From: Eledone cirrhosa
Lineage: Eukaryota
Length of the DNA: 64,000 nucleotides
NCBI GenBank assembly: GCA_964016885.1
Contig: OZ024757.1
Coordinates: 8,804,001 to 8,868,000, forward strand
Direction: 5' to 3'
Below the pieces are notes generated by a model. That model had not been told where the DNA came from. It saw only the letters and a list, made by a program, of their open reading frames with translations, and made no database searches. This document shows positions 946-33,210 of this stretch, one piece after another (the first letter of the stretch is position 1; each line of letters starts with the position of its first letter). A program made the translations under genes and the position numbers.

Positions 946-1008
946 ACTGTGTATATGTACAGTCATTCACGAATGTATCATTGACCGGAGTCTCTACGTG
1001 AGGCTCGT
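946..1008 (-). CDS. 63-nt phase-1 exon (H)[20 protein letters not shown] with GC donor
   Basis: Acceptor ttcgttattttttccAG. Donor GCAAGTTATAATTTAAAC sits at the position homologous to GTAAGTTATAATTTAAAC in sister exons. Confidence 0.6.
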
Positions 1009-3395: not shown

Positions 3396-3458
3396 GATTA
3401 GTAAAAATATCTTTATACTTGAGTGACTCATAAGTAGCAGACTCTCTGTAAAGCTTGT
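3396..3458 (-). CDS. 63-nt phase-1 exon (H)KLYRESATYESLKYKDIFTN
   Basis: Acceptor attgtttatttcttccAG and donor GTAAGTTATAATTTAAAC. The downstream intron is homologous to the one following array exon A. Confidence 0.75.
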
Positions 3459-4345: not shown

Positions 4346-6173
4346 ATCCTTCCTCTACAGGTTCTTCCTTCAGTATATTACCAGAGTACTGAGTTGTGTA
4401 CCACCCCATCACTGTGTCTGATACAGTGGCCTGTGAGTGACATCCTTCCTCTCCAGGTTCATCCCTCAGTATATTACCAGAGTTCTGAGTTGTGAACCAC
4501 CCCATCACTGTGTCTGATACAGTGGACTGTGAGTAACATCCATCCTCTACAAGTTCTTTCCTCAGTATATTACCAGAGTAGTGTGTTGTGTACCACCCCA
4601 TCACTGTGTCTGATACAGTGTCTTGCGAGTGACAACCTTTCTCTACAGGTTCTTCCTTCAGTATAGTACCAGAGTACTGAGTTGTGTACCACCCCATCAC
4701 TGTGTCTGATACAGTGTCTTGCGAGTGACAACCTTCCTCTACAGGTTTTTCCTTCAGTATATTACCAGAGTACTGATTTGTGTACCACCCCATCACTGTG
4801 TCTGATACAGTGGACTGTGAGTGACATCGTCATCTACTAGTTCTTCCTTAAGTATATTACCAGAGTACTGAGTTGTGTACCACCCATCACTGTGTCTGAT
4901 GCAGTAGCCTGTGAGTGACCTCCTTCCACTACAGGTTTTTCCTTCAGTATATTACCAGAGTACTGAGTTGTATACCACCCATCACTGTGTCTGATGCAGT
5001 GGCCTGTGAGTGACAACCTTACTCTACAGGTTCTTCCTTCAGTATACTACCAGAGTACTGATTTGTGTACCACGCCATCATTGTATCTGATACAGTGGCC
5101 TGTGACTGACAACCTTCCAGTACAGGTTCTTCCCTCAGTATATTACCAGAGTACTGAATTGTGTACCACCCCATCACTGTGTCTGATACAGTGGCCTGTG
5201 CGTGACATCTTCCTCTAATAGTTCTTCCTTCAGTATATTACCAGAGTACTCAGTTGTGTACCACCCCATCACTGTGTGTGATACAGTGGCCTGTGAGTGA
5301 CATACTTACTCTACAGGTTCTTCCTTCAGTATATTACCAGAGTACTGAGTTGTGTACCACCCCATCACCGTGTGTGATACAGTGGCCTGTGAGTGACATA
5401 CTTACTCTACAGGTTCTTCCCTCAGTATATTACCAGAGAACTGAGTTGTGTACCACCCCATCAGTATCTGATACAGTGGCCTGTGAGTAACATCCTTCCT
5501 CTACAGGTTCTTCCTTCAGTATATTACCAGAGTACTGAGTTGTGTACCACCCCATCACTGTGTCTGATACAGTGGCCTGTGATTAACATCCTTCATCTAC
5601 AAGTTCTTCCTTAAGTATATTACCCGAGTACTGAATTGTGTACCCCAACATCATTGTGTCTGATAGTGGCCTGTGAGTAACCTCCTTCCACTACAGGTTC
5701 TTCCCTCAGTATACTACCAGAATACTGAGTTGTGTACCACCCCATCACTGTGTCTGATACAGTGGCCTGTGAGTGACATCTTCCTCTACAGGTTCTTCCT
5801 TCAGTATATTCCCATAGTACTGAGTTGTGTACCAACCGATCAGTGTATCTGATACAGTGGCCTGTGAGTGACATCCTTCCTCTACAGGTGCATCATTCAG
5901 TATATTACCAGAGTACTGAGTTGTGTACCATCCCATCACTGTGTGTGATACAGTGGCCTGTGAGTGACATACTTCCTCTACAGATTCTTCCTTCAGTATA
6001 TTACCAGCGTACTGAGTTGTGTACCACCCCATCAGTGTACCTGATGCAGTGGCTTGTGAGTGACATACTTCCTCTACATGTTCTTCCCTTAGTATATTAC
6101 CAGAGTACTGATTTGTGTACCACCCCACCACTGTGCCTGATACAGTGGCCTGTGAGTGACATCCTTCCTCTAC
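4346..6173. repeat. 96-bp minisatellite, ~19 copies
   Basis: Unit atccttcctctacaggttcttccttcagtatattaccagagtactgagttgtgtaccaccccatcactgtgtctgatacagtggcctgtgagtgac; period 96 (4346 to 4442). Confidence 0.95.
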
Positions 6174-6311
6174 ATTAGTTCCAGCATACACAATATGTAG
6201 ACTTTCATGTTTACAAATATATAATGTAATCTCGATTTGACATTAATGTTGAAACACGTGTCATAGTTTTCTGTACAGACTAATAGAAAGTGTGTTTGAA
6301 ATACAACTTAC

Positions 6312-6377
6312 GTTCTTTGGTGACAGTGTCTTTTTTTATGCCAGGCTCAGAGACAAGGTTCTCTACAGATAAAATAA
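6312..6377 (-). CDS. Exon B variant (66 nt) ILSVENLVSEPGIKKDTVTKE
   Basis: ttccatatttcttccAG | 66 nt | GTAAGT; phase 1-1. Confidence 0.65.
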
Positions 6378-6663
6378 CTGGAAGAAATATGGAAGAAAAT
6401 AATAGGAATGCAAGAAGCTTTTGTTGGGAAGAGTTTGTTATCAACTTGAAGAAATGGTAGAATAAGACGTCGTATTTTGAATTACCTAGACCCATTTATT
6501 TAAATATGGGCTGTCTGGAATTATGAGACAAATATGGTAGTTTCCATCTGTGCATAAAGAACAAATATATATGATGGGATAACCAAATTTGACATTAATG
6601 TTGAAACACGTGTCATAGTTCTCTGTACAGACTAATAGAAAGTGTGTTTGAAGTACAACTTAC

Positions 6664-6729
6664 GTTCTTTGGAGACAGAGTCTGTTTTCATGCCTGGCTG
6701 AGAGACAAGGTTCTCTACAGGTGAAATAA
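6664..6729 (-). CDS. Exon B variant ISPVENLVSQPGMKTDSVSKE
   Basis: Canonical acceptor and GTAAGT donor. Lies in a 352-bp local duplication shared with the previous exon. Confidence 0.65.
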
Positions 6730-7350
6730 CTGGAAGAAATATGGAAGAAAATAATAGGAATGCAAGAAGCTTTTCTTGGGAAGAGTTTGTTATCAATTTG
6801 AAGAAATGGTAGAATAAGACGTCGTATTTTGAATTACCTAGACCCATTTAGTTATATATGGGCTGTCTGGAATTATGAGACAAATATGGTAGTTTCCATA
6901 TGTGTATAAAGAACAAATATAAATGATGGGATAACCAAATATGTAGAGCAATAGCTGATCTAGTCATACGAGGATAAGGAGTATGAACAACGAAGGAAGA
7001 CCTGAAATAGTGAAGAAGTGTCCGAGGAAATTTTGTTAAAGATGAGAACTCTGATCTGTAAGATTATTCCATCTACCTCAAAGTATCTTGTGCAACATTC
7101 ATCTTCTCTTTTTAACCAGATATGTCATTCTTTCATAGATAACTCTGATAATAGCCTGAAAAAGTGTATCTTTACTTTTGACATCATTGTAATGTCTCTA
7201 AGGATCGAGGTCAATAAAATGTTTATACTTGATTATGTAGGGAGATTGTAATATAATATTCTTGACTGAAATAAGTAGTTATAAATTTACTGATCAACAC
7301 ATAAATAAGTTTCTGAATAATTAATAGATCATTATAAATGAATAACTTAC

Positions 7351-7410
7351 TCTTTTCAGAAAGTTTGGTGTTGAGTGTTGCACTTCGAGAAGACAAATAT
7401 GAAGCGTCAG
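7351..7410 (-). CDS. Exon A variant (60 nt) [19 protein letters not shown]
   Basis: ttttgtttatgttttctAG | 60 nt | GTAAGT; phase 1-1. Confidence 0.65.
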
Positions 7411-7579
7411 CTAGAAAACATAAACAAAATAATAGTAAAACTGTATGTATATATATACAAATTTATATTACAAATACAGAAAACAGTTATTAGATTCATT
7501 ATCTCTGATATACTGATAAATACACCAGGTCCGAACACAAAAAGAACCAAGTTACCATGTCCTTGCCAGATATATATAT

Positions 7580-7618
<39 letters not shown>

Positions 7619-8059
7619 ACCACGGCGTCTTAGCTCCGTAAATATACATTTACTACCAAATTTTCTCTAATCATGATAACAGTCGTTATAACTAAAATGT
7701 ATTCTTACATAGACACGCATACCGTGTGTGTACACAGAATCTCAGTCACACACGCACACACATGGTTCACACACTCAAAAAGCCACCAAACCAACGGACA
7801 GACACACACAAACTGTTACTCGTTAATGTTATATACAACCCAATATACATATATGTACAGATCAACATACGCAAAACACTAGCATGACTTCACTTATATA
7901 TATATACACACTATTTTATTCATCAGTTCCAGCATACACAATATGTAGACTTTCATGTTTACAAATATATATTGTAATCTCGATTTGACATTAATGTTGA
8001 AAGACGTGTCATATTTCTCTGTACAGACTAATATAATGTGTGTTTGAAATACAATTTTC

Positions 8060-8125
8060 GTTCTTTGGAGACATCGTCTGCTTTTATGCCTGGCTCAGCG
8101 ACAAGGTTCTCTAAAGGAGAAATAA
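8060..8125 (-). pseudogene. Exon B variant with destroyed donor (GAAAAT)
   Basis: Acceptor and frame are intact but GTAAGT is replaced by GAAAAT. The same lesion occurs at 12147, 15677, 19773, 25323 and 63449. Confidence 0.55.
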
Positions 8126-8747
8126 CTGGAAGAAATATGGAAGTAAATAATAGGAATGCAAGAAGATTTTCTTGGGAAGAGTTTGTAGTCAATTTGAAGA
8201 AATGGTAGAATAAGGCGTCGTATTTTGAATTAGCTAGACCCATTTAGTTAAATATGGGCTCTCTGGAATTATGAGACAAATATGGTAGTTTCCATCTGGG
8301 CATAAATAACAAATATATATGATGGGATAAACAAATATGTAGAGCAATAGCTGATCTAGTCATACGAGGATAAGGAGTATGAACAACGAAGGAAGACCTG
8401 AAATAGTGAAGAAGTGTCGGAGGTAATTTTGTTAAAGATGAGAACTCTGATCTGTGAGATTATTCCATCTACCTCAAAGTATCTTGTGCAACATTCATCT
8501 TCTCTTTTTAACCAGATATGTCATTCTTTCATAGATAACTCTGATAATAGCCTGAAAAAGTGTATCTTTACTTTTGACCTCATTGTAATGTCTCTAAGGA
8601 TCGAGGTCAATAAAATGTTTATCCTTGATTATGTTAGGGAGATTGTAATATAATATTCTTGACTGAAATAAGTAGTTATAAATTTACAGATCAAAACATA
8701 AATAAGTTTCTGAATAATTAATAGATAATTTTTAATTTATAACTTAC

Positions 8748-8807
8748 TCTCTTCAGAAAGTTTGGTCTTGAGTGTTGCACTTCGAGAAGACAAATATGAA
8801 GCGTCAG
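8748..8807 (-). CDS. Exon A variant [19 protein letters not shown]
   Basis: Canonical splice sites, 60 nt. Confidence 0.6.
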
Positions 8808-8965
8808 CTAGAAAACATAAACAAAATAATAGTAAAACTGCATGTATATATACAAATTTATATTACAAATACAGAAAACAGTTATTAGATTCATTATCTC
8901 TGATATACTGATAAATACACCAGGTCCGAACACAAAAAGAACCGAAGTTACCATGTCCTAACCAA

Positions 8966-9050
<85 letters not shown>

Positions 9051-9401
9051 TATAGGACCACGGCGTCTTAGCTCCGTAAATATACATTTACTAACAAATT
9101 TTCTCTAATCATGATGACAGTCGTTATAACTAATATTTATTCTTACATACAAACGCATACAGGATGTGCTGAGAGAACCCCACACTCACACACGCGCATA
9201 CAGGTCTCACTCACTCAATAAGTCACCAACGGACAAAGGCACACGAACTGTTACTCGATAATGTTATATACAACCCAATATACATATACATTAGCAAAAC
9301 ACCACCATGAAATTACTTATATATACACACTATTTTATTCATCAGTTCCAGCATACACAATATATAGACTTCCATGTCTACAAATATATAATATATGATG
9401 T

Positions 9402-9716
9402 AATTGGGCTACTCAGCCATTAATATGCATAAGGTAAGTATATACGTTCAATAATTTGGCAGGAAGGTATACGTTGCTGACGATAGCTAATAAGCTTGAA
9501 ACTAGTACAGCATTCCTTTGTGAGTGTTGAACAAACGAGCAACGATGGTTGCTAGACACTACGGTTTAATACGGGATGTTTGTTTACAAACAAACCAAGC
9601 ATTATAATAAATGTTCGGTTAATCCATATGTACATATATACATATGTGTGCCTGTATGTATATATATATACATACTACTGTACGTCTGTATACATGTATG
9701 TATGTACTTATACATA

Positions 9717-9720
<4 letters not shown>
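9402..9720 (+). mobile_element. Penelope pLTR/retrozyme-like element (monomer) with minimal hammerhead at 9464-9518
   Basis: CTGACGA at 9477, then tagct-aata-agctt, GAAA-CTAG-TA and a downstream AATAAA. Confidence 0.6.
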
Positions 9721-9777
<57 letters not shown>

Positions 9778-10195
9778 GTAAATGAAACTTTCAGTATCAC
9801 GGCGTCTTAGCTCCATAAATATACATTTACTACCAAATTTTCTATAATCATGATGACAGGGGTAATAACTAAAATTAATTCTTACATGCATACGCATAGA
9901 AAGTGTGCACAGAGAACCTCACACTCACACTCGCACACACATGGCTCACACACTCAAAAGGCCATCAAACCAACGGACAAACACACACGAACAGTTACTC
10001 GATAATGTTATATACAACCCAATATACATATGTGTATACATCAACATACGCAAAACACCAACATGACTTCACTTCTATATATATATATACACACACTATT
10101 TTATTGATCAGTTCCAGCATACACAATATATAGACTTCCATGTTTACAAATATATAATGTAATAAAAAAAGTACAATGCACCCGCTGTCCTTGCC

Positions 10196-10247
<52 letters not shown>

Positions 10248-10733
10248 GTATTTATATAAATAAAAACATTCAGGATCACGGCGTCCTACCTTCGTGAACA
10301 TACATTTACTACCAAGTTTTCTTTAATCATGATGACAATTGTTATGCCTAAAATGTATTTTTACATACACACGAATATGGAGTGTGCACACAGAACCTCA
10401 CACTCGCTCACGCGCACACAGTGCTCAAACACATCATTACACAAAACACACTGCAAAAGCCACCAACGGACAAACGCACACGAACAGTTACTCGATAATG
10501 TTATATACAACCCAATATACATATATGTATACAGCAACATACGCAAAACACCAGCATGACCTCACTTATATATATATATACACACTATTTTATTCATTAG
10601 TTCCAGCATACACAATATGTAGACTTTCATGTTTACAAATATATGATGTAATCTCGATTTGACATTAATGTTGAAACACGTGTCATAGTTCATTGTACAG
10701 ACTAATAGAAAGTGTGTTTGAAATAAAACTTAC

Positions 10734-10799
10734 GTTCTTTGGAGACAGTATCTGTTGTTATGCCTGGCTGGGAGACAAGGTTCTCTACAGGTGAAATAA
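10734..10799 (-). CDS. Exon B variant
   Basis: Canonical splice sites, 66 nt. Confidence 0.6.
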
Positions 10800-11420
10800 C
10801 TGGAAGAAATATGGAAGAAAATAATAGGAATACAAGAAGCTTTTCTTGGGAAGAGTTTGTTATCAATTTGAAGAAATGGTAGAATAAGACGTCGTATTTT
10901 TAATTACCTAGACCCATTTAGTTATATATGGGCTGTCTGGAATTATGAGACAAATATGGTAGTTTCCATATGTGCATAAAGAACAAATATAAATGATGGG
11001 ATAACCAAATATGTAGAGCAATAGCTGATCTAGTCATACGAGGATAAGGAGTATGAACAAGGAAGGAAGACCTGAAATAGTGAAGAAGTGTCGGAGGAAA
11101 TTTTGTTAAAGATGAGAACTCTGATCTGTAAGATTATTCCATCTACCTCAAAGTATCTTGTGCAACATTCATCTTCTCTTTTTAACCAGATATGTCATTC
11201 TTTCATAGATAACTCTGATAATAGCCTGAAAAAGTGTATCTTTACTTTTGACCTCATTGTAATGTCTCTAAGGATCGAGGTCAATAAAATGTTTATACTT
11301 GATTATGTAGGGAGATTGTAATATAATATTCTTGACTGAAATAAGTAGTTATAAATTTACTGATCAAAACATAAATAAGTTTCGGAATAATTAATAGATA
11401 ATTTTAAATTAATAACTTAC

Positions 11421-11480
11421 TCTTTTCAGAAAGTTTGGTGTTGAGTGTTGCACTTCGAGAAGACAAATATGAAGCGTCAG
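11421..11480 (-). CDS. Exon A variant
   Basis: Canonical splice sites, 60 nt. Confidence 0.6.
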
Positions 11481-11639
11481 CTAGAAAACATAAACAAAAT
11501 AATAGTAAAAAAGTATGTATACATATACAAATTTATATTACAAATACAGAAAACAGTTATTAGATTCATTATCTCTGATATACTGATAAATACACCAGGT
11601 CCGAACACAAAAAGAACCAAGTTACCATGTCCTTGCCAG

Positions 11640-11691
<52 letters not shown>

Positions 11692-12834
11692 ATATATATA
11701 GGACCACGGCGTCTTAGCTCCGTAAATATACATTTACTACCAAATTTTCTCTAATCATGATAACAGTCGTTATAACTAAAATGTATTCTTACATAGACAC
11801 GCATACCGTGTGTGTACACAGAATCTCACAGTCACACACGCACACACATGGTTCACACACTCAAAAAGCCACCAAACCAACGGACAAACACACACACACT
11901 GTTACTCGTTAATGTTATATACAACCCAATATACATATATGTACACATCAACATACGCAAAACACTAGCATGACTTCACTTATATATATATACACACTAT
12001 TTTAATTCATCAGTTCCAGCATACACAATATGTAGACTTTCATGTTTACAAATATATAATGTAATCTCGATTTGACATTAATGTTGAAACACGTGTCATA
12101 TTTCTCTGTACAGACTAATATAATGTGTGTTTGAAATACAATTTTCGTTCTTTGGAGACATCGTCTGCTTATATGCCTGGCTCAGAGAGAAGGTTCTCTA
12201 CAGGAGAAATAACTGGCAGAAATATGGAAGTAAATAATAGGAATGCAAGAAGCTTTTCTTGGGAAGAGTTTGTAGTCAATTTGAAGAAATGGTAGAATAA
12301 GGCGTCGTATTTTGAATTAGCTAGACCCATTTAGTTAAATATGGGCTCTCTGGAATTATGAGACAAATATGGTAGTTTCCATCTGGGCATAAAGAACAAA
12401 TATATATGATGGGATAACCAAATATGTAGAGCAATAGCTGATCTAGTCATACGAGGATAAGGAGTATGAACAACGAAGGAAGACCTGAAATAGTGAAGAA
12501 GTGTCGGAGGAAATTTTGTTAAAGATGAGAACTCTGATCTGTGAGATTATTCCATCTACCTCGAAGAATCTTGTGCAACATTCATCTTTTCTTTTTAACC
12601 AGATATGTCATTCTTTTATAGATAACTCTGATAATAGTCTGAAAAAGTGTATCTTTACTTTTGACCTCATTGTAATGTCTCTAAGGATCGAGGTCAATAA
12701 AATGTTTATCCTTGATTATGTTAGGGAGATTGTAATATAATATTCTTGACTGAAATAAGTAGTTATAAATTTACAGATCAAAACATAAATAAGTTTCTGA
12801 ATAATTAATAGATAATTTTTAATTCATAACTTAC

Positions 12835-12894
12835 TCTCTTCAGAAAGTTTTGTCTTGAGTGTTGCACTCCGAGAAGACAAATATGAAGCGTCAG
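12835..12894 (-). CDS. Exon A variant
   Basis: Canonical splice sites, 60 nt. Confidence 0.6.
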
Positions 12895-13083
12895 CTAGAA
12901 AACATAAACAAAATAATAGTAAAACTGCATGTCTATATACAAAATTATATCACAAATACAGAAAACAGTTATTAGATTCATTATCTCTGATAAACTGATA
13001 AATACACCAGGTCCAAACACAAAAAGAACCAAGGTACCATGTCCTTGCCAAATATATGTATATACATACATATATATATATAT

Positions 13084-13148
<65 letters not shown>

Positions 13149-13499
13149 TATAGGACCACGGCGTCTTAGCTCCGTAAATATACATTTACTGACAAATTTT
13201 CTCTAATCATGATGACAGTCGTTATAACTAATATTTATTCTTACATACACAAGCATACAGGATGTGCTGAGAGAACCCCACACTCACACACGCACATACA
13301 GGTCTCACTCACTCAATAAGTCACCAACGGACAAAGGCACACAAACTGTTACTCGATAATGTTATATACAACCCAATATACATATACATTAGCAAAACAC
13401 CACCATGACATCACTTATATATACACACTATTTTATTCATCAGTTCCAGCATACACAATATATAGACTTCCATGTTTACAAATATATAATATATGATGT

Positions 13500-13816
13500 A
13501 ATTGGGCTACTCAGCCATTAATATGCATAAGGTAAGTATATACGTTCAATAATTTGGCAGGAAGGTATACGTTGCTGACGATAGCTAATAAGCTTGAAAC
13601 TAGTACAGCATTCCTTTGTGAGTGTTGAACTAACGAGCAACGATGGTTGCTAGATACTACGGCTTAATACGGGATGTTTGTTTACAAACAAACCAAGCAT
13701 TATAATAAATGTTCGGTTAATCCATATGTACATATATACATATGTGTGCCTGTATGTATATATATATATATTTACTACTGTACGTCTGTATACATATATG
13801 TATGTACTTATACATA

Positions 13817-13820
<4 letters not shown>
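13500..13820 (+). mobile_element. Second monomer of the hammerhead-bearing pLTR-like element
   Basis: CTGACGA at 13575; duplicate of 9402-9720. Confidence 0.6.
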
Positions 13821-13874
<54 letters not shown>

Positions 13875-14307
13875 TATATATATATTTGTGTAAATGAAAC
13901 TTTCAGTATCACGGCGTCTTAGCTCCATAAATATACATTTACTACCAAATTTTCCATAATCATGATGACCGGGGTAATAACTAAAATTAATTCTTACATG
14001 CATGCGCATAGAAAGTGTGCACAGAGAACCTCACACTCACACTCGCACACACATGGCTCACAAACTCAAAAGGCCATCAAACCAACGGACAAACACACAC
14101 GAACAGTTACTCGATAATGTTAAATACAACCCAATATACATATGTGTATACATCAACATACGCAAAACACCAACATGACTTCACTTCTATATATATACAC
14201 ACTATTTTATTCATCAGTTCCAGCATACACAATATATAGACTTCCATGTTTACAAATATATAATGTAATAAAAAAAGTACAATGCACAATCTGTCCTTGC
14301 CATTTAT

Positions 14308-14341
<34 letters not shown>

Positions 14342-14825
14342 GTATTTATATAAATGAAAACATTCAGGATCACGGCGTCTTACCTTCGTGAACATACATT
14401 TACTACCAAGTTTTCTTTAATCATGATGACAGTTGTTATGCCTAAAATGTATTTTTACATACACACGAATATGGAGTGTGCACACAGAACCTCACACTCG
14501 CTCACGCGCACACAGTGCTCAAACACATCATTACACAAAACACACTGCAAAAGCCACCAACGGACAAACGCACACGAACAGTTACTCGATAATGTTATAT
14601 ACAACCCAATATACATATATGTACAGATCAACATACGCAAAACACTAGCATGACTTCACTTATATATATATACACACTATTTTATTCATTAGTTCCAGCA
14701 TACACAATATGTAGACTTTCATGTTTACAAATATATAATGTAATCTCGATTTGACATTAATGTTGAAACACGTGTCATAGTTCTCTGTACAGACTAATAG
14801 ATAGTGTGTTTGAAATAAAACTTAC

Positions 14826-14891
14826 CTTTTTTGGAGACAGCATCTGTTTTTATGCATGGCTCAGAGATAATGTTGTCTACAGGACTCACAA
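14826..14891 (-). CDS. Diverged exon B variant VSPVDNIISEPCIKTDAVSKK
   Basis: ttccgtattcttttccAG | 66 nt | AG-GTAAGT. Confidence 0.6.
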
Positions 14892-15102
14892 CTGGAAAAG
14901 AATACGGAAGAAAATAATAGGAAAGCTAGAAGAGTTTCTTGGGAAGAGTTTGTTGTCAATTTGAAGAAAACGTAGAATAAGGTGTTGTATTTTAAATTAG
15001 CAAGAACAATTTAGTTATATATGGGCTGTCTGGTATTATGAGACAGATATTGTAGTTTCCCACTGGGCCTAAAGAACAAAAAGAGCCAAGTTACCATGTC
15101 CT

Positions 15103-15180
<78 letters not shown>

Positions 15181-16375
15181 ATATATATATATACATACAT
15201 ATTCACTTATTTATATAAATGCAACGTTTCAGGACCACGGCGTCTTAGCTCCGTAAATATACATTTACTACCAAATTTTCTCTAATCATGATAACAGTCG
15301 TTACAACTAAAATTTATTCTTACATACACACGCATACAGTGTGTGTACACAGAATCTCACCGTCACACACGCACACACATAGCTCACACACTCAAAAAGC
15401 CACCAAACCAACGGACAAACACACGCAAACTGTTATCCGTTAATGTTATATACAACCCAATATACATATGTGTATACATCAACATTCGCAAAACACTAGC
15501 ATGACTTCACTTATATATATATACACACTATTTTATTCATCAGTTCCAGCATACACAATATATAGACTTCCATGTTTACAAATATATAATGTATTCTCGA
15601 TTTGACATTAATGTTGAAACACGTGTCATAGTTTTCTGTACAGACTAATAGAAAGTGTGTTTGAAATACAATTTTCATTCTTTGGAGACAGCATTAGTAG
15701 GTATGCTTGGCTCAGAGACAAATTTCTCTACAGGTGAAATAACTGGAATAAAATACGGAAGAAAATATTAGGAAAGCTACAAGGTTTTCTTGGCAAGAGA
15801 TTGTTGTCAATTTGAGGAAATGGTAGAATAATGTGTCGTATCTTAAATTAGCTATAACTCTTTAGTTATATGTGGGGCGTCTGGAATCGTAATACAGATA
15901 TTACGGGTTCCCACTGGTCCTAAAGAACAAATATATATGATGGTATAACCAAATATTTAGAGCAATGCCGATCTACTGGATACGTGTATGAGGAGTATGA
16001 ACAACGAAGGGGGACCAGAAATAGTGAAGAAGTGTGGGAGGTAATTTTGTTAAATATGAGAACACCGATGTGTCTGATAATTCCATCTAACTCAATATAT
16101 CTAGTGCAACATTCACCTTCTCTTTTGAACCAGATATAATGTCATTCTATCTTAGATAACTCTGAAAATGCGCTGATAAGTTGCATCTTTACTTTTGACT
16201 ACATTGTAAGATCTCTGATGATGGAAGTGAATAAAATGTTTATCCTTGATTATATTAGTGTGTTTGTAATATAAAGTGTGATATTCATGACTAAATTAAG
16301 TAGTTACAAATTTACTGTTCAAAACATAAACAAATTACTGAATAATTAATAAATAATCTTTAAATTATAACTTAC

Positions 16376-16435
16376 TATTGTGAAAACGTTTGGTTTTTGA
16401 TGTTGCACTTCGAGAAGACACATAAGATGTGTCAG
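16376..16435 (-). CDS. Diverged exon A variant DTSYVSSRSATSKTKRFHN
   Basis: ttttctttatattttctAG | 60 nt | GTAAGT. Confidence 0.6.
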
Positions 16436-16484
16436 CTAGAAAATATAAAGAAAATAATAGTAAACCTATATGTATATATAGACA

Positions 16485-16665
16485 TAATTGTTTTTACATT
16501 TGGCACAAGGCCAGCAATTACCCAGTACATTACCGGAACTTTCTTTTATCGGCCCCGTAGGTATGAAAGGCAAAGTTAACCTCGGCGGTATTTGAACTCA
16601 CAATGGCAAGGGCCGTAGCACTATGCGTCAAAGCATCGCGTCCGAGTCTCTAACGATACTGCCAA
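16485..16665 (-). mobile_element. tRNA-derived SINE with Nin/Deu-like core
   Basis: Minus strand has an A-box-like tggcagtatcgttag, a B box gagttcaaatacc and the core gcctttcatacctacggggccgataaaag. Absent from the homologous position in other units. Confidence 0.75.
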
Positions 16666-17243
16666 ATAATATTACAAATACATGAAACAGTTATTAGACT
16701 CATTATCTCTGATATACTGATATATACACCAGGCCCGTTCACAAAAAGTACAATGCACCCATATTTCACGTATTTATATAAATGTAACGTTTAAGGACCA
16801 CGGCGTTTTAGCTCCGTAAATATACATTTACTACCAAATTTTCTCTAATCATGATAACAGTCGTTATATCTAAAATGTATTCTTACATACATACGCATAC
16901 CGTGTGTGTACACAGAATCTCACAGTCACACACGCACACACACATGGTTCACACACTCAATAAACCACCAAACCAACGGACAAACACACACAAACTATTA
17001 CTCGTTAATGTTATATACAACCCAACATACATATATGTACAGATCAACATACGCAAAACACTAGCATGACTTCACTTATATATATATATACACACTATTT
17101 TATTCATCAGTTCCAGCATACACAATATGTAGACTTTCATGTTTACAAATATATAATGTATTCTCGATTTGACATTAATGTTGAAACACGTGTCATAGTT
17201 CTCTGTACAGACTAATAGAAAGTGTGTTTGAAATAAAACTTAC

Positions 17244-17309
17244 GTTCTTTGGAGACGGCGTCTGTTTTTATGACTGGGTCAGAGAAAAGGTTATCTACAG
17301 CTAAATAAA
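17244..17309 (-). CDS. Exon B variant YLAVDNLFSDPVIKTDAVSKE
   Basis: Canonical splice sites, 66 nt. Confidence 0.6.
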
Positions 17310-17930
17310 CTGGAATAAATATGGAAGAAAATAATAGGAATGCAAGAAGCTTTTCTTGGGAAGAGTTTGTTATCAATTTGAAGAAATGGTAGAATAAGAC
17401 GTCGTAATTTGAAATACCTAGACCCATTTAGTTATATATGGGCTGTCTGGAATTATGAGACAAATATGGTAGTTTCCATCTGTGCATAAAGTACAAATAT
17501 ATATGATGGGATAACCAAATATGTAGAGCAATAGCTGATCTAGTCATACGAGGATAAGGAGTATGAACAACGAAGGAAGACCTGAAATAGTGAAGAAGTG
17601 TCGGGGGAAATTTTGTTAAAGATGAGAACTCTGATCTGTGAGTTATTCCATCTACCTCAAAGAATCTTGTGCAACATTCATCTTCTCTTTTTAACCAGAT
17701 ATGTCATTCTGTCATAGATAACTCTGATAATAGCCTGAAAAAGTGTATCTTTACTTTTGACCTCATTGTAATGTCTCTAAGGATCGAGGTCAATAAAATG
17801 TTTATCCTTGATTATGTTAGGGAGATTGTAATATAATATTCTTGACTGAAATAAGTAGTTATAAATTTACTGATCAAAACATAAATAAGTGTCTGAATAA
17901 TTAATAGATAATTTTTAATTCATAACTTAC

Positions 17931-17990
17931 TCCTTTCAGAAAATTTGGTCTTGAATGTTGCAATTCGAGAAGACAAATATGAAGCGTCAG
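17931..17990 (-). CDS. Exon A variant
   Basis: Canonical splice sites, 60 nt. Confidence 0.6.
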
Positions 17991-18144
17991 CTAGAAAACA
18001 TAAACAAAATAATAGTAAAACTGTATGTATATATACAAATTCATATTACAAATACAGAAAACAGTTATTAGATTCATTATCTCTGATATACTGATAAATA
18101 CACCAGGTCCGAACACAAAAAGAACCAAGTTACCTTGTCCTTGC

Positions 18145-18210
<66 letters not shown>

Positions 18211-18548
18211 ACCACGGCGTCTTAGCTCCGTAAATATACATTTACTAACAAATTTTCTCTAATCATAATGACAGTCGTTATATTTCTTCTTACATACACA
18301 CGAATACAGGATGTGCTGAGAGAACCCCACACTCACACACGCACATACAGGTCTCACTCACTCAATAAGTCACCAACGGAAAAACGCACACAAACTGTTA
18401 CTCGATAATGTTATATACAACCCAATATACATATACATTAACAAAACACCACCATGAAATTACTTATATATACACACTATTTTATTCATCAGTTCCAGCA
18501 TACACAATATATAGACTTCCATGTTTACAAACATATAATATATGATGT

Positions 18549-19285
18549 AATTGGCTACTCAGCCATTAATATGCATATGGTAAGTATATACGTTCAATAA
18601 ATTGGCAGGAAGGTATACGTTGCTGACGATAGCTAATAAGCTTGAAACTAGTACAGCGTTCCTTTGTGAGTGTTGAACAAACGAGCAACGATGGTTGCTA
18701 GACACTACGGCTTAATACGGGATGTTTGTTTACAAACACCAAGCATTATAATAAATGTTTGGTGAATCCATAAGTACATATATATATGTGTGCCTGTATG
18801 TATATATATATATACATACTACTGTACGTCTGTATACATATATGTATGTACGTGTACATACTTATATTTAAGTAACAGCCGTACTAAGAGTGGGAAATGA
18901 AATTTCGTTTCATATTTTCCGTTTATCGTTGTCGGTGAACCCGGCCGATTAACCCACTCGATATGCAAATTGGGCTACTCAGCCATTAATATGCACAAGG
19001 TAAGTATATACGTTCAACAATTTGGCAGGAAGGTATACGTTGCTGACGATAGCTAATAAGCTTGAAACTAATGCAGCGTTCCTTTGTCAGTGTTGAACAG
19101 ACGAGCAACGCTGGTTGCTAGACACCAGGCTTAATACGGGATGTTTGTTTACAAACAAACCAAGCATTATAATAAATGTTCGGTTAATCCATATGTACAT
19201 ATATATATATGTGTGCCTGTAAGTATATATATAAATACATACTACTGTACGTCTGTATACATATGTATGTACGTGTACATACTTA
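18549..19285 (+). mobile_element. Tandem (~1.75 x 420 bp) hammerhead-bearing pLTR/retrozyme-like element
   Basis: CTGACGA at 18623 and 19043, exactly 420 bp apart. Confidence 0.65.
18610..18664 (+). ncRNA. Minimal type I hammerhead ribozyme with palindromic stem III
   Basis: aagg tat acgttg-CTGACGA-t agct aata agct t-GAA ACTAGT A-cagcgt t cctt. ACUAGU is palindromic and the cleavage triplet is GUA. The 10.1-11.1 pair is a U-U mismatch. Confidence 0.65.
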
Positions 19286-20472
19286 TATATATATATATAT
19301 ATATATTTGTGTAAATGAAAACTTTCAGTATCACGGCGTCTTAGTTCCGTAAATATACATTTACTACCAAATTTTCTATAATCATGATGACAGTGGTAAT
19401 AACTAAAATTAATTCTTACATACATACGCATAGAAAGTGTGCACATAGAACCTCACACTCACACTCGCACACACATGGCTCACACACTCAAAAGGCCATC
19501 AAACCAACGGACAAACACACACGAACAGTTACTCGATAATGTTAAATACAACCCAATATACATATGTGTATACATCAACATACGCAAAACACCAACATGA
19601 CTTCACTTCTATATATATACACACTATTTTATTCATCAGTTCCAGCATACACAATATATAGACTTCCATGTTTACAAATATATAATGTAATCTCGATTTG
19701 ACATTAATGTTGAAACACGTGTCATAGTTTTCTGTACAGACTAATAGAAAGTGTGTTTGAAATACAATTTTCGTTCTTTGGAGACAACATTAATAGGTAT
19801 GCTTGGCTCTGAGACAAATTTCTCTACGGGGGAAATAACTGGAAAAAAATACGGAAGAAAATATTAGGAAAGCTACAAGGTTTTCTTGGCAAGAGTTTGT
19901 TGTCAATTTGAGGAAATGGTAGAATAAGATGTCTTATTTTAAATTAGCTATAACTCTTTAGTTATATGTGGGGCGTCTGGAATCGTAATACAAATATTAC
20001 GGTTTCCCACTGGTCCTAAAGAAAAAATATATATGATGGTATAACCAAATATTTAGAGCAATGCCCGATCTACTGGATACGTGTATGAGGAGTATGAACA
20101 ACGAAGGCGAACCAGAAATAGTGACGAAGTGTGGGAGGAAATTTTGTTAAATATGAGAACACCGATGTGTCTGATAATTCCATCTACCTCAATGTATCTA
20201 GTGCAACATTCACCTTTTCTTTTGAACCAGATATAATGTCATTCTTTCTTAGATAACTCTGAAAATGCGCTGAAAAGTTGTATCTTTACTTTTGACTACA
20301 TTGTAAGATCTCTGATGATGGAAGTGAATAAAATGTTTATCCTTGATTATATTAGTGTGTTTGTAATATAAAGTGTGATATACATGACTAAATTAAGTAG
20401 TTACACATTTACTGTTCAAAACATAAACAAATTACTGAATAATTAATAAATAATCTTTAAATTATAACTTAC

Positions 20473-20532
20473 TATGGTGAGAACATTTGGTTTTTGATGT
20501 TGCTTTTCGAGAAGACACATAAGATGTGTCAG
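20473..20532 (-). CDS. Diverged exon A variant
   Basis: Canonical splice sites, 60 nt; paralogue of 16376. Confidence 0.6.
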
Positions 20533-20581
20533 CTAGAAAATATAAAGAAAATAATAGTAAACTTATATGTATATATAGACA

Positions 20582-20762
20582 TAATTGTGTTTACATTGGT
20601 CACAAGGCCAGCAATTACCCAGTACATTACTGGAACTTTCTTTTATCGGCCCCGTAGGTATGAAAGGCAAAGTTAACCTCGGCGGTATTTGAACTCAGAA
20701 TGGCAAGGGCCGTAGCACTATGCGTCAAAGCAACGAGTCCGTCTCTCTAACAATACTGCCAA
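20582..20762 (-). mobile_element. SINE copy co-duplicated with its flanks
   Basis: Same sequence and same insertion site as 16485-16665. Confidence 0.75.
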
Positions 20763-21367
20763 ATAATATTACAAATACATGAAACAGTTATTAGACTCAT
20801 TATCTCTGATATACTGATATATACACCAGGCCCGTTCACAAAAAGTACAATGCACCCGCTGTCCTTGCCATTTATATATATATGTATTTATATAAATGAA
20901 AACATTCAGGATCACGGCGTCTTACCTTCGTGAATATACATTTACTACCAAGTTTTCTTTAATCATGATGGCAGTTGTTATGCCTAAAATGTATTTTTAC
21001 ATACACACGAATATGGAGTGTGCACACAGAACCTCACACTCGCTCACGCACACACAGTGCTCAAACACATCATTACACAAAACACACTGCAAAAGCCACC
21101 AACGGGCAAACGCACACAGACAGTTACTCGATAATGTTATATACAACCCAATATACATATATGTATACATCAACATACGCAAAACACCACCATGACCTCA
21201 CTTATATATATATACACATTATTTTATTCATTAGTTCCAGCATACACAATATGTAGACTTTCATGTTTACAAATATATAATGTAATCTCGATTTGACATT
21301 AATGTTGAAACACGTGCCATAGTTCTCTGTACAGACTAATAGAAAGTGTGTTTGAAATACAACTTAC

Positions 21368-21433
21368 CTTTTTTGGAAACAGCGTCTATTCTTATGCCTG
21401 GCTCAGAGACAAGGTTCTCTACAGGACTCACAA
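21368..21433 (-). CDS. Exon B variant VSPVENLVSEPGIRIDAVSKK
   Basis: Canonical splice sites, 66 nt. Confidence 0.6.
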
Positions 21434-21668
21434 CTGGAAGAGAAAACGGAAGAAAATAATAGGAAAGCTAGAAGGGTTTCTTGGGAAGAGTTTATTGTCA
21501 ATTTGAAGAAAACGTAAAATAAGGTGCTTTATTTTAAATTAGCTAGAACAATTTAGTTATATATGGGCTGTCTGGTATTATGAGACAAATATTGTAGTTT
21601 CCAACTTGCCCTAAAGAACAAAGAGAACCAAGTTACCATGTCCTTGCCATATATATATATATATATAT

Positions 21669-21740
<72 letters not shown>

Positions 21741-22219
21741 TTCACGTATTTATATAAATGTAACGTTTAAGGACCACGACGTCTTAGCTCCGTAAATATA
21801 CATTTACTACCAAATTTTCTCTAATCATGATAACAGTCGTTATATCTAAAATGTATTCTTACATACATACGCATACCGTGTGTGTACACAGAATCTCACA
21901 GTCACACACGCACACACACATGGTTCACAAATTCAATAAACCACCAAACCAACGGACAAACACACACAAACTGTTACTCGTTAATGTTATATACAACCCA
22001 ACATACATATATGTACAGATCAACATACGCAAAACACTAGCATGACTTCACTTATATATATATATACACACTATTTTATTCATCAGTTCCAGCATACACA
22101 ATATGTAGACTTTCATGTTTACAAATATATAATGTATTATCGATTTGACATTAATGTTGAAACACGTGTCATAGTTCTCTGTACAGACTAATAGAAAGTG
22201 TGTTTGAAATAAAACTTAC

Positions 22220-22285
22220 GTTCTTTGGAGACATCGTCTGATTTTATGCCTGGGTCAGAGAAAAGGTTATCTACAGCTAAATAAA
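22220..22285 (-). CDS. Exon B variant (YLAVDNLFSDP type)
   Basis: Canonical splice sites, 66 nt. Confidence 0.6.
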
Positions 22286-22906: not shown

Positions 22907-22966
22907 TCCTTTCAGAAAATTTGGTCTTGAATGTTGCAATTCGAGAAGACAAATATGAAGCGTCAG
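22907..22966 (-). CDS. Exon A variant
   Basis: Canonical splice sites, 60 nt. Confidence 0.6.
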
Positions 22967-24856: not shown

Positions 24857-26226
24857 TTGTGTAAATGAAACCTTTCAGTATCACGACGTCTTAGCTCCGT
24901 AAATATACATTTACTACCAAATTTTCTATAATCATGATGACAGTGGTAATAACTAAAATTAATTCTTACATACATACGCATAGAAAGTGTGCACAGAGAA
25001 CCTCACACTCACACTCGCACACACATGGCTCACACACTCAAAAGGCCATCAAACCAACGGACAAACACACACGAACAGTTACTCGATAATGTTAAATACA
25101 ACCCAATATACATATGTGTATACATCAACATACGCAAAACACCAACATGACTTCACTTCTATATATATACACACTATTTTATTCATCAGTTCCAGCATAC
25201 AAAATATATAGACTTCCATGTTTACAAATATATAATGTAATCTCGATTTGACATTAATGTTGAAACACGTGTCATAGTTTTCTGTACAAAATAATAGAAA
25301 GTGTGTTTGAAATACAATTTTCGTTCTTTGGAGACAGCATTAATAGGTATGCTTGGTTCAGAGACAAATTTCTCTACAGGTGAAATAACTGGAACAAATA
25401 TGGAAGAAAATAATAGGAATGCAAGAAGCCTTTCTTGGGAAGAGTTTGTTATCAATTTGAAGAAATGGTAGAATAAGACGTCGTATTTTGAATTACCTAG
25501 ACCCATTTAGTTATATATGGGCTGTCTGGAATTATGAGACAAATATGGTAATTTCCATATGTGCATAAAGAACAAATATATATGATGGGATAACCAAATA
25601 TGTAGAGCAATAGCTGATCTAGTCATACGAGGATAAGGAGTATGAACAACGAAGGAAGACCTGAAATAGTGAAGAAGTGTCGGAGGAAATTTTGTTAAAG
25701 ATGAGAACTCTGATCTGTGAGATTATTCCATCAACCTCAAAGTATCTTGTGCAACATTCATCTTCTCTTTTTAACCAGAAATGTCATTCTTTCATAGATA
25801 ACTCTGATAATAGCCTGAAAAAGTGTATCTTTACTTTTGACCTCATTGTAATGTCTCTAAGGATCAAGGTCAATAAAATGTTTATCCTTGATTATGTTAG
25901 GGAGATTGTAATATAATATTCTTGACTGAAATAAGTAGTTATAAATTTACTGATCAAAACATGAATAAGTTTCTGAATAATTAATACATAATTTTAAATT
26001 AATAACTTACTCTTTTCGGCAAGTTTGGTCTTGAGTGTTGCTCTTCGAGAAGACAAATATGAAGCGTCAGCTAGAAAACATAAACAAAATAATAGTAAAA
26101 CTGTATGTATATATATACAAATTTATATTACAAATACAGAAAACAGTTATTAGATTCATTATCTCTGATATACTGATAAATACACCAGGTCCGAACACAA
26201 AAAGAAACAAGTTACCATGTCCTTAC

Positions 26227-26300
<74 letters not shown>

Positions 26301-27612
26301 TATAGGAACACGGCGTCTTAGCTTCGTAAATATACATTTACTACTGAATTTTCTCTAATCTTGATAACAGTCGTTATAACTAAAATGTATTCTTACATAC
26401 ACACGCATACCGTGTGTGTACACAGAATCTCACAGTCACACACGCACACAGATGGTTCACAGACTCAAAATGCCACCAAACCAACGGAGAAACACACACA
26501 AACTGTTACTCGTTAATGTTATATACAACCCAATATACATATATGTACAGATCAACATACGCAAAACACTAGCATGACTTCACTTATATATATATATACA
26601 CACTATTTTATTCATCAGTTCCAGCATACACAATATGTAGACTTTCATGCTTACAAATATATAATGTAATCTCGATTTGACATTAATGTTGAAACACGTG
26701 TCATATTTCTCTGTACAGACTAATAGAAAGTGTGTTTGAAATAAAACTTACGTTCGTTGGAGACAGTGTCTATTGTTATGCCTGGCTGAGAGACAAGGTT
26801 CTCTACAGGTGAAATAACTGGAAGAAATATGGAAGAAAATAATAGGAATGCAAGAAGCTTTTCTTGGGAAGAGTTTGTTATCAATTTGAAGAAATGGTAG
26901 AATAAGACGTTGTATTTTGAAACAAATATGGTAGTTTCGATATGTGCATAAAGAACAAATATATATGATGGGATAACCAAATATGTAGAGCAATAGCTGA
27001 TCTAGTCATACGAGGATAAGGAGTATGATCAACGAAGGAAGACCTGAAATAGTGAAGAAGTGTCGGAGGAAATTTTGTTAAAGTTGAGAACTCTGATCTG
27101 TGAGATTATTCCATCTACCTCAAAGTATCTTGTGCAACATTCATCTTCTCTTTTTAACCAGATATGTCATTCTTTCATAGATAACTCTGATAATAGCCTG
27201 AAAAAGTGTATCTTTACATTTGACCTCATTGTAATGTCTCTAAGGATCAAGGTCAATAAAATGTTTATCCTTGATTATGTTAGGGAGATTGTAATATAAT
27301 ATTCTTGACTGAAATAAGTAGTTATACATTTACTGATCAAAACATAAATAAGTTTCTGAATAATTAAAAGATAATTTTAAATTAATAACTTACTCTTTTC
27401 GGCAAGTTTGGTCTTGAGTGTTGCACTTCGAGAAGACAAATATGAAGCGTCAGCTAGAAAACATAAACAAAATAATAGTAAAACTGTATGTATATATATA
27501 CAAATTTATATTACAAATACAGAAAACAGTTATTAGATTCATTATCTCTGATATACTGATAAATACACCAGGTCTGAACACAAAAAGAAACAAGTTACCA
27601 TGTCCTTACCAA

Positions 27613-27795
<183 letters not shown>

Positions 27796-28902
27796 TATAG
27801 GAACATGGCGTGTTAGCTTCGTAAATATACATTTACTACTGAATTTTCTCTAATCTTGATAACAGTCGTTATAACTAAAATGTATTCTTACATACACACG
27901 CATACCGTGTGTGTACACAGAATCTCACAGTCACACACGCACACACATGGTTCACACACTCAAAAAGCCACCAAACCAACGTAGAAACACACACAAACTG
28001 TTGGAGACAGTGTCTATTGTTATGTCTGGCTGAGAGACAAGGTTCTCTACAGGTGAAATAACTGGAAGAAATATGGAAGTAAATAATAGGAATGCAAGAA
28101 GCTTTTCTTGGGAAGAGTTTGTTATCAATTTGAAGAAATGGTAGAACAAGACGTTGTATTTTGAATTACCTAGACCCATTTAGTTATATATGGGCTGTCT
28201 GGAATTATGAGACAAATATGGTAGTTTCGATATGTGCATAAAGAACAAATATATATGATGGGATAACCAAATATGTAGAGCAATAGCTGATCTAGTCATA
28301 CGAGGATAAGGAGTATGATCAACGAAGGAAGACCTGAAATAGTGAAGAAGTGTCGGAGGAAATTTTGTTAAAGTTGAGAACTCTGATCTGTGAGATTATT
28401 CCATCTACCTCAAAGTATCTTGTGCAACATTCATCTTCTCTTTTTAACCAGATATGTCATTCTTTCATAGATAACTCTGATAATAGCCTGAAAAAGTGTA
28501 TCTTTACATTTGACCTCATTGTAATGTCTCTAAGGATCAAGGTCAATAAAATGTTTATCCTTGATTATGTTAGGGAGATTGTAATATAATATTCTTGACT
28601 GAAATAAGTAGTTATACATTTACTGATCAAAACATAAATAAGTTTCTGAATAATTAAAAGATAATTTTAAATTAATAACTTACTCTTTTCGGCAAGTTTG
28701 GTCTTGAGTGTTGCACTTCGAGAAGACAAATATGAAGCGTCAGCTAGAAAACATAAACAAAATAATAGTAAAACTGTATGTATATATATACAAATTTATA
28801 TTACAAATACAGAAAACAGTTATTAGATTCATTATCTCTAATATACTGATAAATACACCAGGTCTGAACACAAAAAGAAACAAGTTACCATGTCCTTACC
28901 AA

Positions 28903-29075
<173 letters not shown>

Positions 29076-30191: not shown

Positions 30192-30278
<87 letters not shown>

Positions 30279-31639: not shown

Positions 31640-31744
<105 letters not shown>

Positions 31745-33105: not shown

Positions 33106-33210
<105 letters not shown>

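What the first reader, a model, noticed from the sequence alone, without database searches (positions are those of the whole stretch)
6312..22285. Exons are hypervariable while their flanking introns are nearly identical
Hand count for exon B at 6664 versus 17244: 12 differences in 66 nt, changing 9 of 21 residues (ISPVENLVSQPGMKTDSVSKE vs YLAVDNLFSDPVIKTDAVSKE). The adjacent 66 nt of intron differ at only 1 position on one side and 2 on the other. Exons 6312 and 6664 differ at 8 positions. None of these variants has an indel or a stop. Exon-faster-than-intron divergence is known from toxin and immune-recognition genes under diversifying selection. It also independently supports the exon boundaries.
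Basis: partly seen in the sequence, partly recalled or inferred. Interest (0 to 1): 0.85.

Follow-up and report, generated by a model that had tools for sequence, protein, structure and literature searches.

The report
Orphan exon-array gene, homogenised introns
This is a real, apparently undescribed animal gene family built from long runs of tiny repeated exons, whose introns look young because copies keep overwriting each other while the exons stay different; the process is known from colour-vision and blood-group genes, and nothing here looks like a toxin or an immune receptor.

Summary
The claim of no stop is wrong: exon 12147 has TAA, and 4 of 11 copies in range lack a GT donor. The exons belong to a 70-kb minus-strand gene: a basic, Cys-bearing first exon, 76 phase-1 exons of 60 or 66 nt, and four short terminal exons. 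It would encode a 1,585-aa Ser/Thr-rich protein with no signal peptide and no homologue found. The genome holds 17 first-exon copies. dN/dS is only 1.3-1.6 (p 0.025-0.07). Synonymous sites also exceed the introns, even in exon 1, where dN/dS is below 1. Recent variants are equally dense in exons and introns, so there is no ongoing hypermutation. Chimeric units show recombination, one switching at an exon edge. Best reading: conversion homogenises the introns while selection keeps the exons distinct, with mild positive selection on a few codons of exon B. The mechanism is known; the family and its architecture appear new. Expression and function are unproven.

The parts
337..399 (-). 63-nt phase-1 exon, third unique exon after the array; the last exon lies just outside the window (L006, about 540 nt below window position 1)
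946..1008 (-). 63-nt phase-1 unique exon with a GC donor
   Evidence: same exon in paralogues
3396..3458 (-). 63-nt phase-1 unique exon
   Evidence: the region matches 10 loci at 98-100%
4346..6174 (.). intronic 96-bp minisatellite, 19 copies, reading frame broken
6312..6377 (-). exon B (66 nt), last array exon, GT donor
7351..7410 (-). exon A (60 nt), GT donor
8060..8125 (-). exon B copy with GA in place of the GT donor (probably skipped)
8748..8807 (-). exon A
10734..10799 (-). exon B, GT donor
11421..11480 (-). exon A
12147..12212 (-). exon B pseudo-exon: GA donor and in-frame TAA; the same stop is in 3 paralogues
12835..12894 (-). exon A
14826..14891 (-). exon B, lineage II
15677..15742 (-). 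exon B, lineage III, GA donor
16376..16435 (-). exon A, lineage III
17244..17309 (-). exon B with type-I flanks but 14 of 66 nt different from the block exon (13 replacement, 1 silent); introns of this unit differ by about 3%
17931..17990 (-). exon A, 6 of 60 nt different from the block exon
19773..19838 (-). exon B, lineage III, GA donor
20473..20532 (-). exon A, lineage III
21368..21433 (-). exon B, lineage II
22220..22285 (-). exon B, sister of 17244, type-I flanks
22907..22966 (-). exon A
25323..25388 (-). chimeric B unit: type-I upstream intron, lineage-III exon with GA donor; ancestry switches at the acceptor
26011..61929 (-). homogenised block of A+B units of about 1,450 bp, each with an (AT)n tract; 22 of 23 full B exons identical; two truncated B copies at 27996 and 29284
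62624..62689 (-). exon B, lineage II
63449..63514 (-). exon B, lineage III, GA donor (GT at the same position in paralogue C18:9376399). Three more array exons and exon 1 lie beyond the window (L007:148-207, 1075-1140, 2037-2102; exon 1 L007:6233-6458)

Best explanation
The region is the 3' part of one member of a lineage-specific multigene family (17 first-exon copies). Each member examined in its array region has a conserved basic, Cys-bearing first exon followed by a tandem array of 60-nt (A, basic) and 66-nt (B, acidic) phase-1 exons. SHOWN: units are amplified and exchanged by unequal crossover and gene conversion within and between genes; introns are less diverged than both silent and replacement exon sites; recent variants are equally dense in exon and intron; stops are purged from exons with GT donors. 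INFERRED: conversion keeps resetting intron divergence, while tracts that overwrite an exon are selected against or add variants from diverged donors, so exons keep older divergence (silent sites included) and become patchworks; mild positive selection acts on B codons 12-17. GA-donor copies are skipped in frame and can act as conversion donors. INFERRED FUNCTION (about 35%): an intracellular, disordered protein of about 1,600 aa, targeted to the nucleus or a membrane by the Arg/Lys- and Cys-rich N-terminus, with alternating basic and acidic blocks and Ser/Thr-Pro phosphorylation sites, whose length and block make-up differ between paralogues, as in ampliconic germline gene families.
For: Whole-unit comparison: introns about 3%, A 6/60, B 14/66. 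Cross-lineage tree lengths: B exon 2.17 vs introns 1.17 and 1.07, with dS 1.52 and dN 2.41; A exon 1.56 vs 0.82 and 0.84, with dS 1.37 and dN 1.74. In 7 comparisons involving the distant D family (D1), pS is 0.23-0.64 against flanks of 0.11-0.27. Exon 1 vs D1: 31/220 different, pS 0.21, pN 0.125, against intron 1 at 47/822 (p 1e-4). A SINE-like repeat in intron 1, 19-28% diverged from other copies nearby, differs by only 9-13 of about 199 nt in all 8 distant paralogues tested, while array introns differ by about 22%. B25323 switches ancestry at the acceptor. A paralogue's exon (C28:126784219) has the 5' 29 nt of the 62624 type and the 3' part of the 21368 type. Upstream, exon and downstream trees conflict in all 12 cross tests (AU p<0.02). 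Recent variants: 19/960 in exons vs 57/2905 in introns, ratio 1.01 (95% CI 0.6-1.7), N:S 14:5. M2a vs M1a for B: p 0.001, codons 12, 14, 15, 17. The model is described for opsin and RH genes in PMC3924837 (section 3.2 read).
Against: No RNA evidence for the splicing pattern or the protein. Omega near 1 gives little sign of what selection would be protecting. The M2a test also fired on an intron control read as codons (p 0.03), and recombination inflates it. Among distinct alleles of the type-I live exons N:S is 20:4, not different from neutral (p 0.28). In single pairs dN/dS ranges from 0.44 to 3.0. G/C sites change about 1.5-1.8 times faster than A/T sites in introns, so base composition explains part of the excess. 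Intron near exons looks somewhat more conserved than deep intron in the D1 comparison (about 0.17 vs 0.28), which points to some intron constraint. AU tests favour each partition's own tree by construction. No second species was available to separate conversion from constraint.
Confidence: 0.6

Rival explanations
1. Strong diversifying selection on amino acids alone drives the exon peak, as in toxin or immune-recognition genes.
For: Omega 1.58 for B across lineages (LRT 3.98); pooled 1.45, p 0.025; B17244 vs the block has 13 replacement to 1 silent change; within-block live variants N:S 22:3 (p 0.10); codons 12-17 change most.
Against: dS is itself 1.3-1.7 times the intron rate and about twice the flanks in deep pairs; exon 1 shows the same peak with dN/dS below 1; none of six family-level tests is significant; no signal peptide, membrane stretch or recognition domain.
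Confidence: 0.17
2. Introns are under purifying selection (splicing elements for short exons, or RNA structure for editing) while the exons evolve close to neutrally, constrained only against stops and frameshifts.
For: Omega near 1 in A exons; flanks are less diverged than deep intron in the D1 comparison.
Against: A decayed SINE-like copy is equally young; whole 600-nt introns are 97% identical around diverged exons; recent variants in array flanks (0.020) are not rarer than in the unique 3' introns (0.013); chimeras show exchange directly.
Confidence: 0.13
3. An exon-targeted process (hypermutation, or conversion templated by spliced cDNA from other family members) adds changes only inside exons.
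For: The peak begins at the acceptor; one ancestry switch maps to the exon edge; 16 of 30 minority alleles in type-I exons occur in other lineages.
Against: Recent variants show no exon excess (ratio 1.01, upper bound 1.7); sharing is as high in introns (12 of 16 and 9 of 20); in B25323 the foreign ancestry continues past the donor into the intron, which cDNA cannot supply; by inspection the exon-1 changes are mostly not CpG transitions.
Confidence: 0.07
4. The array is non-coding satellite DNA, or a dead gene, and the exon calls are chance.
For: No homologue found; 50 of 157 B copies seen in the close family have a non-GT donor; 2 of 17 first exons are broken.
Against: An open 1,585-codon frame through 68 array exons; 1 stop in 530 GT/GC-donor copies against about 8 expected in live lineages; the same 60/66-nt phase-1 layout is kept at 35-47% exon divergence in D1; exon 1 has pN below pS.
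Confidence: 0.03

Closest known systems
Divergence peaks under gene conversion: human red/green opsin exon 5, RHCE/RHD (PMC3924837, section 3.2 and passages read)
   Same: Introns more alike than exons between paralogues; peak confined to the exon; conversion evident; dead copies can serve as donors.
   Different: There two gene copies and known selected residues; here the peak repeats at dozens of tiny exons within a gene and across 17 paralogues, and the selected function is unknown.
NPIP/morpheus on LCR16a (PMC7419210, PMC2812944, passages read)
   Same: Lineage-specific family in interspersed near-identical duplications, fast exons, variable repeat region; testis-biased in monkeys.
   Different: NPIP has extreme positive selection, a predicted N-terminal transmembrane segment and repeats inside one last exon; here omega is 1.3-1.6, there is no hydrophobic stretch and each repeat is its own exon. 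No sequence similarity found.
Argiope MaSp2 and flagelliform spidroin genes (PMC9779670, passages read)
   Same: Two exons plus two homogenised introns form an alternating repeated unit, homogenised within a gene and diverging between genes. The authors knew no other eukaryotic gene with alternating homogenised introns; this is one.
   Different: Spidroins are secreted fibre proteins with large Gly/Ala-rich exons; MaSp2 introns turn over faster than exons between genes, the reverse of this family.
Schistosome micro-exon genes (PMC8293314, passages of a review read)
   Same: Symmetric short exons that can be skipped in frame; lineage-specific; raised dN/dS; duplicated.
   Different: MEG exons are 36 nt or shorter and the proteins carry signal peptides; here exons are 48-78 nt, recently tandem-duplicated with their introns, and there is no signal peptide.
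ANKRD36/ANKRD30-type exon arrays; conotoxin and snake PLA2 genes (recalled, no call supports the details)
   Same: Tandem two-exon units with introns (ANKRD36); exon-faster-than-intron divergence (toxins).
   Different: No ankyrin domain, no secretion signal, no cysteine framework in the repeats.

Membership tests
Conversion-with-selection divergence peak (opsin/RH type) | Introns more similar than the enclosed exon between paralogous copies | tested here: met
   54 of 55 pairs; exon 1 vs intron 1
Conversion-with-selection divergence peak (opsin/RH type) | Direct evidence of conversion or crossover | tested here: met
   chimeras; partition trees conflict
Conversion-with-selection divergence peak (opsin/RH type) | Silent exon sites raised along with replacement sites | tested here: met
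   4-fold sites alone are only 1.3-1.5 times the base-matched intron rate, not significant
Conversion-with-selection divergence peak (opsin/RH type) | Introns group by species, exons by orthologue, across species | not testable with these tools
   no relative genome is held
Secreted toxin genes with hypervariable exons | Signal peptide and small, usually disulfide-rich mature peptide | tested here: not met
   highest 19-residue hydropathy -0.09 near the N-terminus and 0.76 overall; 1,585 aa; about 0.4% Cys
Secreted toxin genes with hypervariable exons | dN/dS clearly above 1 in the variable exon | tested here: inconclusive
   0.80-1.62 by family, pooled 1.3 to 1.45
Immune or allorecognition receptors (Dscam, Ig/LRR types) | Extracellular recognition domain with signal peptide or membrane anchor | tested here: not met
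   no Pfam family above cut-off for exon 1 or 4 single exons; no hydrophobic stretch
Schistosome-type micro-exon genes | Symmetric exons skippable in frame | tested here: met
   all internal exons phase 1/1, lengths multiples of 3
Schistosome-type micro-exon genes | Exons of 36 nt or less and a signal peptide | tested here: not met
   60-66 nt typical; no signal peptide
Schistosome-type micro-exon genes | Combinatorial exon skipping in mRNA | tested here: inconclusive
   no run on record as RNA; no informative joints shown
NPIP-like core-duplicon / ampliconic family (works like) | Several interspersed copies above 97% identity, both orientations, no homologue outside the lineage | tested here: met
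   7 copies at 99-100% on C18 and C28; no homologue found
NPIP-like core-duplicon / ampliconic family (works like) | Testis or germline expression; sex linkage | not testable with these tools
   tissue of the runs not on record; no coverage test by sex possible
Spidroin genes with repeated introns | Alternating homogenised introns delimiting repeat units | tested here: met
Spidroin genes with repeated introns | Secreted Gly/Ala-rich silk protein with spidroin terminal domains | tested here: not met
   Ser 16%, Thr 9%, Gly 2%; no Pfam match

The most novel reading that the evidence does not exclude
A new animal diversification system: a 17-member orphan family whose intracellular proteins are assembled from tens to over 200 skippable 20-22-residue exon modules. 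Homogenised introns serve as recombination substrate for shuffling whole and half exons, GA-donor pseudo-exons serve as a silent donor library, and selection keeps modules and N-termini distinct, giving copy-, allele- and possibly cell-specific proteins for a germline conflict or intracellular self/non-self role.
Probability: 0.15. Interest if true: 0.85.

Novelty: new variant of a known kind. Interest (0 to 1): 0.52.

Why it matters
It gives a compact natural test bed for conversion-versus-selection theory: hundreds of replicated exon/intron pairs at three depths of divergence in one genome, with live and dead exons as internal controls. It adds an example of alternating homogenised introns outside spider silk. 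It also points to a large, fast-evolving orphan family (probably cephalopod) for which no protein-database match was found; the clade is inferred, not shown. It is also a caution that exon-faster-than-intron divergence does not by itself show positive selection.

Tried and rejected
RNA: no RNA holder listed (4 runs of unknown kind, one study). Two runs were laid on window 300-20299. X4 has depth near exon 3396 and none in most array bins, which would fit a transcript sample, but no exon-exon joint was among the 15 of 203 joints shown, the stretch omitted the main block, and 95% likeness may drop spliced pieces, so nothing is concluded about expression or skipping. Homology: exon-1 protein against longer proteins, 0 of 41 candidates scored; ESM Atlas, no usable hit; Pfam, only PEHE at E 0.052, below cut-off; a 5-sequence profile against 1.84 billion representatives gave 2 hits, a Vibrio VCBS repeat protein and a cod repeat protein, both judged repeat-inflated chance. 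The array exons could not be searched: they are shorter than the tool's minimum. A neighbouring C2H2 zinc finger did not fix the clade. Sex linkage of C18 was considered after reading part 1 of 5 of PMC10925132 and not tested. CpG hypermutation of exon 1 was rejected by inspection. The distinct-allele intron counts (47/300, 20/110) include non-homologous flank and were not used. Within-block intron counts are inflated by indels and only show that exons are not more variable there. One search read the last exon one base off (corrected). Rows left out of the trees: P_127957 (B); six A copies with non-homologous flanks; GA-donor copies for the codon fits. Rescue of GA-donor exons by a nearby cryptic GT was rejected by reading the sequence: the next GT adds 7 nt. 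Earlier scan notes: none found.
Full report
WHAT IS THERE. The window is C18:8,804,001-8,868,000 of a 3.0-Gb genome. From 6.3 kb on it is a tandem array of units of about 1,450 bp. On the minus strand each unit holds a 60-nt exon A and a 66-nt exon B, both phase 1/1. There are 34 A and 39 B copies in the window, 35 and 41 with the upstream flank. Upstream lies a 226-nt first coding exon (L007:6233-6458). Downstream lie three unique 63-nt exons (3396, 946, 337) and a short last exon. Joining the 68 array exons with GT donors gives an open frame of 1,585 aa: Ser 16%, Thr 9%, few aromatic residues, 18 Lys/Arg in the first 45 residues, and no hydrophobic stretch. A exons are basic (mean +1.9) and B exons acidic (-1.9). 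The organism looks like an octopus from a recalled SINE sequence, the microsatellite load and a surrounding C2H2 zinc-finger cluster (such expansions are described in PMC9068888, passages read). This is inference; one search did not fix the clade.

THE FAMILY. Exon 1 has 17 copies: 7 at 99-100%, 3 at 93% and 7 at 81-82%; 15 of 17 are open. I fetched two paralogues whole (C28:88-222 kb, called P93, and C18:9.33-9.38 Mb), 130 kb of a distant one (D1, whose array did not end within that stretch), both ends of five close copies, and pieces of others. Wherever array sequence was reached it has the same A/B layout, each subfamily with its own homogenised variant; D1 uses a three-exon unit. The degenerate copy D2 kept only a few recognisable exons in 60 kb, and one 10-kb piece held none. 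No protein homologue was found.

CHECK OF THE OBSERVATION. The counts 12/66 vs 2 and 1, and 8/66, are exact. The peak starts at the acceptor and ends about 10 nt before the donor. Two claims fail. B12147 has a stop, and 4 of the 11 B copies in range have GA instead of GT at the donor. Introns are nearly identical only within a lineage: 3-5% among type-I units but about 12% upstream across lineages.

ARE THEY EXONS? Probably. Of 530 copies with GT/GC donors 1 has a stop, against 4 of 52 without; about 8 stops would be expected among 198 changes in live lineages. Of 16 extra copies found by a gapped search, 6 have net in-frame length changes, 5 have frameshifts, 2 are the truncated window copies, and the other 3 are D2 or a46 rows, counted as printed. 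Direct RNA proof is lacking.

IS IT POSITIVE SELECTION? Only mildly. Omega was 1.54, 1.00, 1.48, 1.13, 0.80 and 1.62 in six family sets and 0.63 in GA-donor copies, none significant; pooled 1.3, p 0.07. Across lineages it is 1.58 for B (21 copies) and 1.27 for A (18 copies), pooled 1.45, p 0.025. A site model marks B codons 12, 14, 15 and 17 (p 0.001), but 1 of 4 intron controls also fired (p 0.03). Silent sites are raised too: dS tree length 1.52 vs 1.17 and 1.07 for B, 1.37 vs 0.82 and 0.84 for A. Base composition explains a part; the residual is 1.6-1.8-fold at first and second positions and 1.3-1.5-fold at 4-fold sites (computed).

IS IT HYPERMUTATION? Not now. At 15 matched exon positions across the close paralogues, variants number 19/960 in exons and 57/2905 in flanks, N:S 14:5 (ratio 1.01, CI 0.6-1.7). 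The exon excess therefore sits in older divergence.

IS IT CONVERSION? Yes, in good part. B25323 is type I over about 100 informative upstream sites and type III from the first exon site on. One paralogue's B exon is half one type and half another. Upstream, exon and downstream trees conflict (with the caveat that each tree is fitted to its own data). Exon 1 is the cleanest case because it is not arrayed. Against D1 it differs at 31/220, with pS 0.21 and pN 0.125, while the first 820 nt of intron 1 differ at 47/822 and a stretch upstream at 3/114. Silent divergence in exon 1 equals that of array introns between the same genes (about 0.22). So the exon is old and its flanks are young, and the flanks include a decayed SINE-like copy that is unlikely to be conserved by selection. 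The retained divergence is concentrated in the basic, Cys-bearing 5' half (25/132 vs 6/88).

MECHANISM. Shown: amplification, exchange, young introns, old and patchy exons, purged stops. Inferred: neutral conversion should cross exons at random, so repeated sparing of exons implies selection against overwriting them, perhaps reinforced by poor pairing of already diverged exons. This is the divergence-peak model described for opsin and RH genes (PMC3924837), which also notes that dead copies can persist as donors. For function I commit, at about 35%, to an intracellular disordered protein with a nuclear or membrane-targeting N-terminus (basic clusters; C14, P27, C28, Y29, R30 invariant in the 5 aligned copies) and a tunable body of alternating charged, phosphorylatable blocks, most likely germline-expressed by analogy with ampliconic families. 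The motif readings (nuclear signal, palmitoylation, Ser/Thr-Pro kinase sites) are recalled, not tested.

COMPARISON AND NOVELTY. It works like opsin/RH peaks and resembles NPIP, Argiope MaSp2 and schistosome MEGs in parts, but fails defining features of each gene family. Searches for a description of this family found none: 1 paper, unrelated; 20 of 49 listed, titles and abstract starts only. The library lacks most subscription papers, and no supplements were read; gene-family tables in cephalopod genome supplements could list it. Verdict: real feature, known mechanism, apparently new family and architecture; interest 0.52.

Noticed in passing
window 4346-6174: The 96-bp intronic minisatellite begins right after a truncated B downstream intron and weakly resembles exon B (6 of 1,000 shuffles score as high); parts read as open 32-residue repeats (165 and 245 aa ORFs) but the frame is broken.
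   Followed up: partly
L049-L060 (C18:5.16, 7.01, 7.79, 8.34 Mb): The unit holding a live A exon and a GA-donor B exon has itself been tandemly amplified 3-6 times in four close paralogues, which would give runs of basic A modules if B is skipped.
   Followed up: partly
L015 (C28:89641-89703) and L075 (C28:4671589): Both P-type copies examined carry a TAG in the exon matching window 337-399, so their C-terminus is truncated or the exon is skipped; 6 of 63 nt differ from the window against 2 of 160 in flanks.
   Followed up: no
L035-L042, L064-L068 (C28:43.29-43.41 Mb): The D1 array runs for more than 117 kb with three-exon units and higher-order patterns; its end was not reached.
   Followed up: partly
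window about 3260-3395: Read-through of the donor of exon 3396 meets a stop after 3 codons and an AATAAA about 130 nt further on: a possible alternative 3' end, deleted in P-type copies.
   Followed up: no
L003:4482-5345 and L005:1068-1868: C2H2 zinc-finger genes 15-36 kb downstream, members of a family with at least 40 close copies, many on C18.
   Followed up: partly
window 50.4-62.8 kb: Unit spacings repeat with a four-unit period (1426, 1470, 1454, 1444), a recent higher-order duplication of about 5.8 kb.
   Followed up: no
L007:7130-7800: A long (CCA/CCAGCA)n tract upstream of exon 1, next to LINE-derived sequence.
   Followed up: no
L043-L048 (C28:28.78 Mb): Copy D2 has a frameshifted exon 1 and few recognisable array exons, yet part of its intron 1 is 96% identical to the window's gene.
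   Followed up: no
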